From the human T2T-CHM13v2.0 reference genome, Homo sapiens, in the NCBI RefSeq assembly GCF_009914755.1, contig NC_060927.1: 64,000 nucleotides of DNA; one strand, 5' to 3'. This document shows, in pieces, positions 19,519 to 27,300 of the stretch. Both the position numbers and the translations under genes were made by a program. Every line of letters starts with the position of its first letter. Position 1 is the first letter of the stretch. The notes beneath the pieces are model-generated. The model was not told where the DNA came from. It ran no database searches and saw only the letters and a program-made list of their open reading frames with translations.

Positions 19519-21080
19519 CATTTTCTCAAAATTTCCCAGTGTGGTTGTTTGAAAAAATTTCCCATAGAACATAATCCATTTTCAAATATAGGTTACTGGT
19601 GGGGTAAGTTCAACATACTTAGAAAAATTTAAAAATTACTTTGAATTGTATAATATTTTAATTATCCATGCTTCTATTATCTGCCATTGTATGGAGAAAA
19701 AAACTTTGTTGTGTTATCTGTTTTTTAAAAAAATCAGTTTGTGTCTGTTTGTGTGATATCACATATATACATATATGAATTTCAATACATACATCTTGGA
19801 ATACACCTTCACAGATGGTTTGTATAGATACAAAAGAACAAATTGTGAGGGGGTAGTTTTGTTCGGTTGATGAGAAAACATTGTAGTCTAGAGTACATGT
19901 GAGAGATGAAGTTCAAGTCTGGTTGCTTCTGACTCCAACCTTCCACTGTGTCTCCTGTAAGCTACACTTCCTCCAGATGTTTCATCTATATGCTGCCGGA
20001 CATCTGGTGTTTTCCAGCTATATTTATAATGCCCAGATGTTTTGTGTCAAGTAGATACGGCTAGTTGTTAATTAACTAAATCTTAGCATTTTCATCTAGC
20101 TGATTCAATGGCAGTCCCCAAAATATTTCAGAAGTGCTAAAAAAAATGCATAAACATAAGAAAGATTGATATGGTGTTCAATAAGCATCCCCAAATTTCC
20201 AGATTCACTTTTGACTAACTATACAAATTTATTCTTTTCCCAGTTATGTCAAAACCAATAATCAATTTTTTGGAAAGGATGCTATTTTCTATATGACATA
20301 GTAATTCATTTAGAAACACTCAACAACCCTCGTTGCTTTCCTAAGCTTTCCTAGCAAATTGCTAGGGTACCAGGGTCCAGAAAGGCAGGAGTACTCTTCT
20401 ACTAACATTTAATTGTGTGAACTGATCCACCCCAAACCTCTTTACCCCTTGGACTCAAGCTTATCTTTCTAAGAGGGATAGGGTTGCAGGTGGGGAAGTA
20501 TAGAGAGACAATAGTCTCAGCAGCCATGTGAGACACCCAAATTCCCAAGAAACAAGCAGTCTTCTCCTCATGCTAATACCTACCTCTCCAGCAAATAGCC
20601 CAAGGAGTCTTTGGTCCTGGCCAACCCAGTATCAACATGCATTTTTCCTAGGAAAGGAACAAGCAGGTAGTAAAGAAGAGTCCAACACTCCCTCTAGAGG
20701 CCAATTCATAGGCCTTCCAGATAAGCCATTTTGTGTTGTATTCATTATTCACCGTGAGTCCTGAGACTGCTTTGAGAACCATCCAAGGACAAAACCTAAA
20801 AAGATCCTGGATGCAACCAGATCTGTGTCACTTTCTGTCTCCCTAGGCTGTTCAGTACTCCCCAGATATTGTTTTTTTAAATTTCCAAAACACCAAGGAC
20901 TTTTCCTACAAAGCTATTATCACTATATGCAATTATGCATTCTTTTGTGATTGATTAACAGCTCTCTCTTCTACCAGAATGAGTACTAGGACCATGTCTG
21001 TTTCTATTAACTACCATATTTCCAAGACCTGGCACCTGGTAGATTCTCAATAGAGATTTGCTAAATAAATGAGTAAACCC

Positions 21081-24313: not shown

Positions 24314-27300
24314 TAAATAAATGAGTAAACCCACCTAATGTATTTGGCCATCAAAACCTACTGGATAATGCCTATATACTTTTCTATATTGTATTTTTAG
24401 CTATAATATGTCACTGAATTTCCTGTATCAAGACTAATTAATAGAGTGAACTTTCAGGAGCTGGGCTAAGCATTTTATTGCATTACTTCTTTTGTCCTTG
24501 TCAAAAATACTATGAAAATGTATCTCATTATTGCCCCTTTTTACAGTTGGAAACTGAGGCTTCATTGGGTTCTAGGGCTACTTAGAAAGAATTGAAATTC
24601 GACCTCAGGACTGCCTGATTTCAAAGACGGCAGACTTAACCACTATGTGATAATTCCTATTCTAAAAACCTGTATATAATAAGACCAACATAAAAAATTC
24701 TCAATGAAGATCAAGCAGAATAATGAATGTAGAGGGCTTAGCACAGCACCTGACCCATAGTAAACATAGAATCAATAGAGCTATTAATATTAATGCTACT
24801 ACTAATATTATTAATTTATTTTGAACAGCTCTTAATTTGCTAATGTTACTATTAACTTTCTTTGAAAGGTCTGTGCTAGTTGTAATAAAAAGATTAGGCA
24901 GGATCAATGGAAAATTAAATCATGTTTTGAGGAGTGTTTTTAACATATGATTTACGACAGTATTGCAGAAAGCTATTGAAGACTTTGCATCTATTCTGAG
25001 TTCACCAAACATCCAGGAATACCTCCCTCTTGCACCAAGATTATAAAATCAATTGCCTGTAACTGAAATAAAGAGAGAGATGCAGGGGATCTAAAAATCT
25101 TCTTTTCACAAGAAAAGTTAAGAACAAGAAATAGAAGGTATCTGTTCTACAGCTAAGCCACCACAGATTAATTGATAAAGTTTTCTGGGAACAGTCTAGA
25201 AAAGAAAAAGTGCAGTATGTCAATCATAATGAAATTTAACTTCGGGGAAAAAGCAATGAAACCCTACATTAATTCTCAAGCATCAGCCAGATTCTTCACG
25301 CATAAAACAAGATGATTGACTATTACCCAGACCTTGTAACAGAAGAACATCAGCATCCACTACATCTCTCTTTTTGCAAAATCCTGATTAATTGGCAGTG
25401 TGACAATAGTGTATCTTGCAGTTCTTACATGAAACAACTCAGGCAGAGTATAGGCCACTGGAGGGAGGAGAACAGATCTCCCTTGGCTGGTCTCCCCCAC
25501 TCTCTTCCATTTTTAGAACAGTACCCAGCCCATAGCAGGGAAGATAATAAAGTGTAAACAGACGACTTGGAAAAGAGACAGAAACAACAATGGACAAACA
25601 AAAAAATCAATGGGATTTGGAGTCAAACAGACCTGAGTTTGGTACCCAACCTCTCTATTTACTTAACTTCTCTGATCTTTTCCTTCTTCATTTGTAAAAT
25701 AGAAAAACTAACAGCTACTTCGCAGGGTTGTGGTGAAGATGAAATGAGGTGGAACAGGTAAGGCATCATACCTTACATATGGTAGACCTTCATTCAATAT
25801 AATGAGGTTCACCTTCCAGTGAATGACACAGACTTTGGAGCTTAGCAAACCTATGTTGCAACCAAAGTTTAGCAGCTTAGTAACTCTGAGATGTCTAGCA
25901 AATCACTTAATCTTTCTGAATTTTGACTTTCTCACCTGTAAAATACAGTCAATAATAGTCACCTCAAAGTGTCATTATGAGAATTAAATGAGTAATGCGT
26001 GGAATGTTCAGTGTCTGATACATAGTAACAGATAAATGATAGCCATGTTTATATCATTGCTTAATTTTTGTTATGAGCCTAAACAATCATGGCCTTCTAA
26101 AAGCAATCGTGTTTTTATAAGATTAAGAATATAGACTGTGGAGCCAAACTCCCTCGGTTGAAATCCTGGCTGTGCACCTTTCAAACTGGGTTTAAGTAAT
26201 TTATCCCAACTATAAAATGGGATTACAATAGTATCTACCCCAAAAGGGTTGTTAGGAAATTAAAGAAGCAAATATATGTAAAACTTCAATAAGTGTTCTC
26301 TAAGTGTTGGCAGCTCTCATCATCATCACCATTACCAACACCACCATTAACACTATCATCATTATCATCATGATCATCTCTTGAAGGGGTCACAAAATCA
26401 TCTCCTTAGAAACTGCTACCTCCCAATTAAAAATATAACAGCAATAATATTAATTGAAATTTATTCCGGCTATGACAATATTGAAAATATAGGCAGCCTG
26501 GTCTTCTGTCCCTTACCACTTCTGTGGGCCTCTTCCTGCAGAGAGCTCTGCCTGAGCTCAGAGAAAACCATGCTTGGAGAAAACACACAGACCCCAAGTA
26601 AGGGATAAATGTGGAGCCTCCAGCTCTTGGATGTCGGAAAGAAAAACTGAGGTAGGGTGTGAACCAGAGGCAATTCAGAGGCACTTTTCCAAGTAAGTGT
26701 TTTGCAAATGAAGTGGCTGCTACCCTGAGTCCTTGGCTTATTAGATGGGTGATAACCATCAAAAAGACAAACAGGGTGGGAAGTTCTCATCCAAAATGGA
26801 AAAGTCCTAACTCACATGCCAAGCTCCTTGGAGCTGGCCATTTGCACATGATTAGAGACTTTCTGACTTCAATTTCTCCTCTCTAGTAAAGATAAGCAAA
26901 CTTGATGGCTTGACCACTCTTACCCCAGAATTCCTTTTGCTTATTTAAAACACCAGCCCTGAGCAGGCCTGGCTTTCAGTGGGGTCTAGAGCTCACCCAG
27001 CAGGTTTAAGCCATTTTGCCAATGGATTTGTCATTAAAGATTACAAAGTCTAGGGGATTAGTGGGATTTGTCTAAGCACACTCAATGTCAGGAAGAAGAG
27101 GGACTGGTCTCCTGGGACCAAAAACTCCAAATCTGGTCTAAGCTCATTTCATTTACCTCCAGAAACTGGGTTTGTGTTCTTACTCATAAAATACAAACAG
27201 TAGTAATATCTGCTTCATAGAGTTGTTGTAAAGTAAAAGAAATGGTGCATATAGAGCATTTTGCACGGTACCTAGTGTGTGATAAGTGCCTGATGGTGGT

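What the first reader, a model, noticed from the sequence alone, without database searches (positions are those of the whole stretch)
21062..24332. L1 insertion carrying a ~760-bp 3' transduction into the SYNPR intron
Seen in the sequence: the 19-mer taaataaatgagtaaaccc lies immediately 5' of the truncated L1 (21062-21080). It is absent after the L1's own poly(A) at 23538 and reappears exactly at 24314-24332. It is preceded there by a second AATAAA (24281-24286) and an A-rich tail starting about 14 nt later. Established: TSD - truncated L1 - poly(A) - foreign DNA - AATAAA - poly(A) - TSD is the signature of L1 3' transduction after read-through of the weak L1 poly(A) signal. Inference: 23539-24299 is a copy of the flank of a source L1 elsewhere in the genome and tags that source. 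Repeat masking would show only L1 + MLT1 + unique DNA and miss this.
Basis: partly seen in the sequence, partly recalled or inferred. Interest (0 to 1): 0.8.

Follow-up and report, generated by a model that had tools for sequence, protein, structure and literature searches.

The report
L1 copy carrying chromosome 1 flank
A dead, shortened L1 jumping gene in a SYNPR intron dragged 762 bases of chromosome 1 along when it inserted, an ordinary and well-known process, and that tag points to a parent L1 that is missing from this genome.

Summary

- **Target-site duplication.** The 19-mer TAAATAAATGAGTAAACCC occurs exactly twice in the window, at 21062-21080 and 24314-24332. None of 100 shuffles gave two matches.
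- **What lies between the two copies.** There is a 5'-truncated, frameshifted L1 (21081-23538, RVT_1 domain, A14 tail), then 762 bp (23539-24300).
- **Origin of the 762 bp.** They match chr1:107,626,724-107,627,485 with 6 mismatches and no indel. The match stops 13-14 nt after an AATAAA, where chr3 has a short A-rich tail and chr1 runs on into a GU-rich stretch.
- **The chr1 site is empty here.** It holds no L1 in this assembly, and an old MLT1 LTR runs unbroken across the break.
- **A sibling insertion.** A second truncated L1 lies 436 kb upstream on chr3, with its own 18-bp duplication. It ends L1-A13-GATATGCCCACCCAGG-A13, which is the first 16 nt of the same chr1 flank. That 21-mer tag occurs at only these three places in the genome.
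- **Reading.** An L1 once sat at the chr1 site and has been lost, or is absent from this haplotype. A template-switch chimera is unlikely.

This is a clean new instance of a common mechanism. Interest is low to moderate.

The parts
21062..21080 (+). 5' target-site duplication, TAAATAAATGAGTAAACCC (19 bp; the first T could instead belong to the tail, giving 18 bp)
   Evidence: Exact repeat of 24314-24332, the only 2 matches in the window, 0 of 100 shuffles reach 2.
21081..23538 (+). 5'-truncated L1 (2,458 bp): ORF2 from the start of the reverse-transcriptase region, the 3' UTR and an A14 run (23525-23538). ORF2 is split over three frames. 1-nt microhomology (C at 21080) at the 5' junction.
   Evidence: 98.84-99.09% identity to 8 fetched genomic L1 copies. 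39 other genomic hits at 98-99%. RVT_1 E=6.7e-31. ORF pieces 21077-21313, 21214-22974 and 22896-23354 lie in different frames. The alignment to the sibling starts at 21080.
23488..23518 (+). Junction of a 36-bp deletion in the L1 3' UTR, lying between two GCACATGTA repeats
   Evidence: A 36-column gap against all 8 compared L1 copies. The same junction 31-mer occurs in 5 L1 copies genome-wide.
23522..23527 (+). The L1's own AATAAA poly(A) signal, bypassed in the transcript that gave this copy
   Evidence: Hexamer scan and sequence.
23539..24300 (+). 762-bp 3' transduction copied from chr1:107,626,724-107,627,485. The first ~420 bp are the 3' part of an MLT1-type LTR and the rest is unique DNA. 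It contains 7 bypassed AATAAA/ATTAAA hexamers.
   Evidence: 99% identity, 6 mismatches and no indel against L002 1501-2262. MLT1 copies match query 1-~425 at 70-74%. Hexamers.
24281..24286 (+). AATAAA that ended the read-through transcript. Cleavage fell 13-14 nt downstream.
   Evidence: Homology to chr1 ends at 24300. chr1 continues tccaagtttctgtttct.
24301..24313 (+). Short A-rich tail, (A)AAAAATAAATAAA, not present in chr1
   Evidence: Alignment gap in chr1. Tail string.
24314..24332 (+). 3' target-site duplication

Best explanation
The whole of 21081-24313 (3,233 bp) is one L1 retrotransposition event with a 762-nt 3' transduction.

1. A full-length L1 once sat on the + strand of chr1, between CHM13 positions 107,626,718 and 107,626,719. 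It lay inside an MLT1 LTR, at a TTTTT/G site on the bottom strand. This step is inferred.
2. One of its transcripts ran past the L1's own AATAAA and past seven further AATAAA/ATTAAA hexamers. It was cleaved 13-14 nt after the AATAAA that in chr1 is followed by a GU-rich element.
3. L1 ORF2p nicked the SYNPR intron at a T-rich site, primed on the poly(A) tail, and copied the chr1 flank, the source's genomic A-tail and then the L1 3' part. It stopped inside ORF2, giving the 5' truncation with 1-nt microhomology.
4. The staggered second nick gave the 18-19-bp duplication.

A sister transcript of the same source used the L1's own signal and was cleaved only 16-17 nt into the flank. That transcript produced the second insertion at chr3:63,196,747-63,199,5xx.

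The source allele is absent from this assembly. It was either lost by drift or is still a non-reference allele.
For: - **Single duplication around the whole unit.** One exact 19-bp direct repeat brackets L1 plus foreign DNA, and there is no second repeat around the L1 alone.
- **Origin on chr1.** The foreign DNA is 99% identical to one locus only: 6 mismatches in 762 bp, no indel, among 40 scored hits of 3,472 candidates.
- **The chr1 copy is the original.** There is no A-tail at either end. The MLT1 continues upstream of the break: 5 of 8 MLT1 copies align from L002 1467-1481, which is 15-29 bp upstream of the break at 1495|1496. The other 3 start at 1517-1524.
- **Upstream homology limit.** It falls at an A5 run on chr1 that merges into the A14 of the chr3 L1, as expected if the source's duplication began AAAAAGATATG.
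- **Downstream limit.** It falls 13-14 nt after AATAAA, with gtttctgtttct downstream in chr1. PMC13009371 (passages) reports a poly(A) signal 10-30 bp upstream of 274 of 349 transduction ends.
- **Sibling insertion.** A second 5'-truncated L1 (98.9% identical to ours) has its own 18-bp duplication TAAAATGTTTTCTTTAAA and ends A13-GATATGCCCACCCAGG-A13(TAAA)n.
- **The tag is unique.** The 21-mer AAAAAGATATGCCCACCCAGG, searched with up to 1 mismatch on both strands, occurs at exactly 3 genomic sites: the chr1 parent and the two chr3 L1s. Two independent insertions share the same L1/flank junction.
Against: - **No source L1 in this assembly.** The defining parent arrangement, an L1 directly upstream of the transduced DNA, is not present. 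The chr1 site is empty. The only L1 within 10 kb either side is a minus-strand, 5'-inverted copy 4.6-6.8 kb upstream that points away.
- **Shared L1 variants are weak markers.** Ours and the sibling share 3 sites against 7 other copies, while the other 35 pairs share at most 1. But two of these variants occur in 3,245 and 586 L1 copies genome-wide. All three sit at CpG positions.
- **The sibling lacks the 36-bp 3' UTR deletion**, so the two L1 bodies are not identical in structure.
- **The 3' tail is short and T-interrupted.**
- **No outgroup primate could be checked** for the empty SYNPR site.
Confidence: 0.9

Rival explanations
1. Template-switch chimera. L1 reverse transcriptase first copied a polyadenylated chr1 transcript at the SYNPR nick. 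At the transcript's A5 run or 5' end it then jumped to the poly(A) tail of an L1 RNA. On this reading no L1 ever sat on chr1.
For: The chr1 site is empty. The junction lies at an A5 run that could pair with a poly(A) tail. Chimeric retrocopies made by L1 RT template switching have been described; this is recalled and was not read here.
Against: A second, independent insertion with a different duplication has the identical L1-A(n)-GATATGCCCACCCAGG junction but only 16 nt of flank. Two separate switches at the same base, one of them from a 16-nt template, are very unlikely. The junction also fits an L1 endonuclease site (TTTTT/G; consensus recalled).
Confidence: 0.03
2. Transduction, but not directly from the chr1 site. 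The immediate parent would be an intermediate full-length L1 that had itself carried at least 762 nt of chr1 flank to a third place, or a paralogue of the chr1 segment. That intermediate is now absent from the assembly.
For: The chr1 site is empty. Serial transduction is known (recalled).
Against: No third copy of the 762 bp exists among the 40 scored hits of 3,472 candidates, and there is no further tag site. This reading needs one more lost element than the simple model. The sibling's 16-nt tag is explained most simply by cleavage at the L1's own signal at the chr1 site.
Confidence: 0.05
3. Two unrelated events or chance. Either a retrocopy of a chr1 transcript and a separate L1 insertion happen to lie next to each other, or the 19-mer repeat is coincidental.
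For: None beyond adjacency. AT-rich (TAAA)n motifs are common.
Against: 0 of 100 shuffles give a second 19-mer. The L1 alone has no flanking duplication of its own...gtaaaccc upstream against gatatgccc downstream. The L1/flank junction recurs in the sibling.
Confidence: 0.01

Closest known systems
L1 3' transduction (partnered), as defined in PMC13009371, PMC9311842 and PMC4862182 (passages read). The original descriptions by Moran 1999, Goodier 2000 and Pickeral 2000 are recalled and were not read.
   Same: The order duplication, truncated L1, L1 A-tail, unique DNA from another chromosome, AATAAA, A-tail, duplication. The inter-chromosomal origin. The end of the copied piece 13-14 nt after a poly(A) signal.
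   Different: The parent site holds no L1 in this assembly, so the source is inferred from a sibling insertion and not seen. The L1 also has a 36-bp 3' UTR deletion.
Short (<100 bp) L1 transductions flanked by poly(A) on both sides (PMC13009371, passages)
   Same: The sibling at chr3:63.199 Mb has 16 nt of flank between two A13 runs, about 30 nt past the L1 AATAAA.
   Different: It is an old germline, reference-genome copy, not a somatic tumour insertion. At 16 nt it is near the short end of the range.
Chimeric retrocopies made by L1 RT template switching
   Same: Two RNA-derived parts inside one target-site duplication.
   Different: Here the same junction is found in two independent insertions, and it coincides with an L1 endonuclease-type site in the parent DNA.
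Orphan transduction (PMC13009371 and PMC12350158, passages)
   Same: Flank DNA moved by L1 machinery, ending at a downstream poly(A) site.
   Different: Here 2,458 bp of L1 came along, so this is partnered and not orphan.

Membership tests
L1 3' transduction | One target-site duplication brackets L1 plus non-L1 DNA together | tested here: met
   The 19-mer lies at 21062-21080 and 24314-24332, with only 2 matches in the window and 0 of 100 shuffles reaching 2. There is no separate repeat around the L1 alone.
L1 3' transduction | The 5' part is L1 in sense orientation, ending in its own AATAAA and an A run | tested here: met
   98.8-99.1% identity to 8 L1 copies. RVT_1 E=6.7e-31. AATAAA at 23522-23527 and A14 at 23525-23538.
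L1 3' transduction | The 3' part ends with a poly(A) signal 10-30 nt before a non-templated A-tail that abuts the 3' duplication | tested here: met
   AATAAA at 24281-24286. Homology ends at 24300. The tail 24300/24301-24313 is absent from chr1. The tail is short and T-interrupted.
L1 3' transduction | The 3' part has a near-identical parent locus elsewhere that lacks retrocopy marks | tested here: met
   chr1:107,626,724-107,627,485, 6 mismatches in 762 bp. The MLT1 is continuous across the break in 5 of 8 comparisons. There is no A-tail in chr1.
L1 3' transduction | The parent locus lies directly 3' of a source L1 in the same orientation | tested here: not met
   The site is empty in this assembly. 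The only L1 within 10 kb either side is a minus-strand copy pointing away. Indirect support comes from a second insertion with the same L1/flank junction, with the tag at exactly 3 genomic sites. Absent source alleles are an accepted situation for this family (non-reference progenitors: PMC9311842, passage).
L1 3' transduction | An empty pre-insertion site in an outgroup species | not testable with these tools
   No primate genome is held. The age is only estimated, from 0.79% divergence.
L1 endonuclease-dependent (TPRT) insertion | A T-rich bottom-strand nick site (consensus TTTT/AA, recalled) and a 7-20-bp duplication | tested here: met
   Ours reads ...CATTTATTT/AGC with an 18-19-bp duplication. 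The sibling reads ACATTTT/AAATC with 17-18 bp. The inferred chr1 site reads ATCTTTTT/GAAGG. The consensus itself is recalled.
Template-switch chimeric retrocopy | A junction created during one reverse-transcription event, and so private to one insertion | tested here: not met
   The same junction is present in two insertions with different duplications.
L1PA2/L1PA3-age subfamily (assignment by recall only) | Subfamily-diagnostic bases scored against curated consensus sequences | not tested
   No repeat library is held. What is known is 98.8-99.1% identity to the nearest copies and CTAAAACTT near the 3' end. Reading that as non-Ta is from memory.

The most novel reading that the evidence does not exclude
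The only two surviving offspring of one vanished chr1 L1 lie 436,030 bp apart on the same strand of chr3p14, where a uniform expectation gives 2.8e-4 (a post hoc figure). The boldest reading not excluded is that this is not chance. Both copies may have gone in during one germ-line burst into the same chromatin or replication domain, which would mean L1 integration can be regionally clustered for one source. A related reading is that the chr1 source is not extinct and still segregates as a non-reference allele in people.
Probability: 0.08. Interest if true: 0.55.

Novelty: new member of a known kind. Interest (0 to 1): 0.3.

Why it matters
- **Annotation.** It shows that 762 bp of apparently unique intronic DNA in SYNPR, which NCBI's repeat masking leaves unmasked after 23548, is a retrocopy of chr1 sequence.
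- **A lost source.** It gives a molecular tag for an L1 source that no longer exists in this genome. Together with the 16-nt-tagged sibling it reconstructs a small L1 family whose parent was never fixed, or was lost.
- **Possible effect on SYNPR.** The insertion places a once-functional poly(A) site, plus the L1's own, in the sense orientation inside a SYNPR intron. No annotated transcript ends there in the hub's table.
- **Overall.** The mechanism is textbook, so the value is in annotation and genealogy and not in a new concept.

Tried and rejected
- **Shared L1 variants as proof of common descent.** Ours and the sibling share 3 sites against 7 other copies. Two of these variants are common in the genome, at 3,245 and 586 exact matches. 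I keep this only as weak evidence.
- **The 36-bp 3' UTR deletion as a lineage marker.** Four other L1s share the junction at 97.3-98.5% identity. None carries the chr1 tag. At the two marker sites they cover (22253, 22887) they are mixed: L013 has T then A, L015 has C then A, L017 has G at 22887, and L016 is not covered. The sibling lacks the deletion. The deletion is therefore recurrent slippage, or arose in our copy. This stays open.
- **The upstream L1 on chr1 as source.** It is on the minus strand, 5'-inverted, 96% identical, and its 3' end points away. Rejected.
- **A third young L1 at chr3:63,183,475 as a further sibling.** It has no tag after its A-tail. Rejected.
- **Literature for this locus.**
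  - SYNPR + transduction + LINE-1 gave 1 paper, which is irrelevant (listing only).
  - PMC156586 (Szak 2003) is not held.
  - The supplement of PMC6934888 has no per-locus list.
  - The supplements of PMC12350158 have no row at chr1 107626xxx or 107627xxx. One file was cut when stored, so its Tables 19-20 may not have been searched.
  - The bioRxiv supplement of 10.1101/083295, a list of human-specific elements, is closed.
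Full report
**1. The observation**

The 19-mer TAAATAAATGAGTAAACCC is present, exact, at 21062-21080 and 24314-24332. With up to two mismatches allowed these are the only two matches on either strand of the window. None of 100 dinucleotide-preserving shuffles produced two matches.

L1 sequence starts right after the first copy. The C at 21080 can belong to either the repeat or the L1, which is a 1-nt microhomology. 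The L1 ends in AATAAA (23522-23527) and an A14 run (23525-23538). The 19-mer does not follow that A run.

**2. The L1**

21081-23538 (2,458 bp, + strand, the same sense as SYNPR) is 98.84-99.09% identical to 8 genomic L1 copies that I fetched. That is 22-28 mismatches over 2,411-2,413 aligned bases. All 39 non-self hits among the 40 scored of 8,112 candidates are 98-99% identical.

It begins at the start of the reverse-transcriptase region of ORF2 (RVT_1, E=6.7e-31). Its ORF2 remnant is spread over three frames, so it is a dead, 5'-truncated copy.

Against all 8 compared copies it lacks 36 bp of the 3' UTR between two GCACATGTA repeats.

The bases near its 3' end (CTAAAACTT) and the nearest relatives' AACTAACCTGCACAATGTGCAC suggest an L1PA2/L1PA3-age element and not the human-specific Ta group. 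That assignment rests on my memory of the diagnostic sites and was not tested against a repeat library.

**3. The foreign DNA and its parent**

I searched the whole assembly with 23539-24313. Besides the self match, one locus came back: chr1:107,626,724-107,627,485, + strand, 99% identity over query 1-762. The remaining 38 scored hits (of 3,472 candidates) are 70-74% identical copies of an MLT1-type LTR and cover at most query 1-425.

The pairwise alignment shows 6 mismatches and no indel over 762 bp.
- **Upstream.** The match runs on through five more A's, which in chr3 are part of the L1's A14.
- **Downstream.** It stops at 24300. chr3 then has AAAAATAAATAAA followed by the duplication. chr1 continues tccaagtttctgtttct.
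- **Position of the signal.** The stop is 13-14 nt after AATAAA (24281-24286), and chr1 offers a GU-rich downstream element there.
- **Bypassed signals.** Seven other AATAAA/ATTAAA hexamers inside the piece were passed over.

PMC13009371 (passages read) reports that 274 of 349 transduction ends have a poly(A) signal 10-30 bp upstream. This end is therefore typical.

**4. Which copy is the original**

chr1 has no A-tail at either border. The MLT1 LTR continues upstream of the break.
- In 5 of 8 comparisons with other MLT1 copies the alignment starts at L002 1467-1481, which is 15-29 bp before the break at 1495|1496.
- In the other 3 it starts at 1517-1524.

In chr3 the same LTR is cut off by the L1's A-tail. 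chr1 is therefore the parent and chr3 the copy.

**5. The missing source**

There is no L1 at the chr1 break. Within 10 kb on either side the only L1 is a 96%-identical, 5'-inverted, minus-strand copy 4.6-6.8 kb upstream, and its 3' end points away.

The break itself, ccttc|AAAAAGATATG, reads TTTTT/G on the bottom strand. That is close to the L1 endonuclease consensus TTTT/AA (recalled). It is where a source L1 with a duplication starting AAAAAGATATG would have sat.

**6. A sibling insertion**

One of the close L1 copies fetched for comparison lies at chr3:63,197,014-63,199,560. It ends ...ATAATT-A13-GATATGCCCACCCAGG-A13-(TAAA)n.

The 16 nt between the two A runs are the first 16 nt of the chr1 flank. 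The alignment to our element runs through to window 23555.

This L1 is also 5'-truncated. It starts at chr3:63,196,747 and has its own 18-bp duplication TAAAATGTTTTCTTTAAA. It is therefore an independent insertion.

A genome-wide pattern search for AAAAAGATATGCCCACCCAGG, with up to 1 mismatch, finds exactly three sites: the chr1 parent, this sibling and our element. The reverse-complement query returns the same three.

The simplest account is that a sister transcript of the same source used the L1's own AATAAA. It was cleaved about 30 nt downstream, past the genomic A-tail and 16-17 nt into the flank. Such short transductions flanked by poly(A) on both sides are described in PMC13009371 (passages).

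**7. Rivals**

- **Template-switch chimera (chr1 transcript, then a jump to an L1 RNA tail).** This fits the empty chr1 site and the A5 microhomology. It would need the same junction to arise twice, once with a 16-nt template. I put it at about 3%.
- **Serial route through a lost intermediate element.** This needs an extra lost copy and finds no third copy in the genome. About 5%.
- **Chance, or two unrelated insertions.** Excluded by the shuffle control, by the lack of a duplication around the L1 alone, and by the sibling.

**8. Weak or negative results**

- **Shared variants.** Ours and the sibling share 3 L1 sites not seen in 7 other close copies, while the other 35 pairs share at most 1. 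Two of these variants are common genome-wide, at 3,245 and 586 exact matches, and all three sit at CpG positions. This adds little.
- **Pairwise distance.** The two siblings differ at 27 sites. They are no closer to each other than to unrelated copies at 22-28. That is what a star-like family predicts, but it is not positive evidence.
- **The 36-bp deletion.** It is absent from the sibling. It is shared with four untagged L1s that do not consistently share our variants. Its origin stays open.

**9. Age**

The difference of 6 in 762 is 0.79%, with a Poisson 95% interval of 0.29-1.71%. Three or four of the six differences are at CpG sites.

Set against a human-chimpanzee divergence of about 1.2% in 6-7 million years (recalled), this gives roughly 4 million years, with a range of about 1.5-9. 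The insertion may be human-specific or shared with African apes. It should be absent from orangutan and macaque. No primate genome is held, so this was not tested.

A source allele of that age that is missing today was most likely never fixed.

**10. Comparison with what is known, and novelty**

This is a partnered L1 3' transduction in every tested feature except one: the source L1 is not seen at the parent site.

3' transductions accompany about 10% of reference L1/SVA insertions (PMC4862182, passage) and about 25% of L1 insertions (PMC13009371, passage). Non-reference progenitors are reported in PMC9311842 (passage).

I found nothing in print on this locus. One search, SYNPR + transduction + LINE-1, gave 1 irrelevant paper. 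Large catalogues whose supplements I could not see, or saw only in part, may list it.

My verdict is a new member of a known kind.

**11. One oddity**

The two offspring are the only ones in the genome. They lie 436,030 bp apart on the same strand. Under uniform insertion that closeness has probability 2.8e-4.

The figure is post hoc, and young L1s are dense in this AT-rich region. A third, untagged 99% copy lies 11 kb from the sibling. I treat the closeness as coincidence but record it.

Noticed in passing
G000:C3:63196729-63199560 (L029 7130-9961; L027 1380-1560): A sibling L1 lies about 47 kb upstream of the SYNPR gene start. It is 5'-truncated at about 2.76 kb, has the duplication TAAAATGTTTTCTTTAAA, and carries a 16-nt micro-transduction GATATGCCCACCCAGG of the same chr1 flank between two A13 runs. 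It lies 436,030 bp from our element on the same strand (uniform p = 2.8e-4, post hoc).
   Followed up: yes
window 23488-23518: A 36-bp deletion in the L1 3' UTR lies between two GCACATGTA repeats. The identical junction occurs in 4 other L1 copies (chr2:10,835,987, chr4:130,329,514, chr4:183,279,234 and chrX:82,872,716; 97.3-98.5% identity to ours), none with the chr1 tag. Whether this is recurrent slippage or a small lineage is undecided.
   Followed up: partly
L011 3212-5363 (G000:C1:107619935-107622086): A 5'-inverted (twin-priming-like) L1 on the minus strand, 96-97% identical to ours, lies 4.6-6.8 kb upstream of the chr1 parent site. Its 3' end points away, so it is not the source.
   Followed up: partly
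L030 3475-5970 (G000:C3:63183474-63185969): Another L1 copy, 98.9% identical, lies 11 kb upstream of the sibling. It has a plain A-tail and no tag. Young L1s are locally dense here.
   Followed up: partly
window 33139-35445 (-), 51408-52338 (-), 27668-27730 (-): Older L1 fragments on the minus strand, 72-92% identical to the young L1. They are unrelated to the finding.
   Followed up: no
window 23964-24205: Seven AATAAA/ATTAAA hexamers inside the transduced piece were all bypassed by the read-through transcript. Together with the L1's own signal and the terminal one, they now sit in the sense orientation inside a SYNPR intron. No annotated transcript in the hub's table ends there.
   Followed up: no
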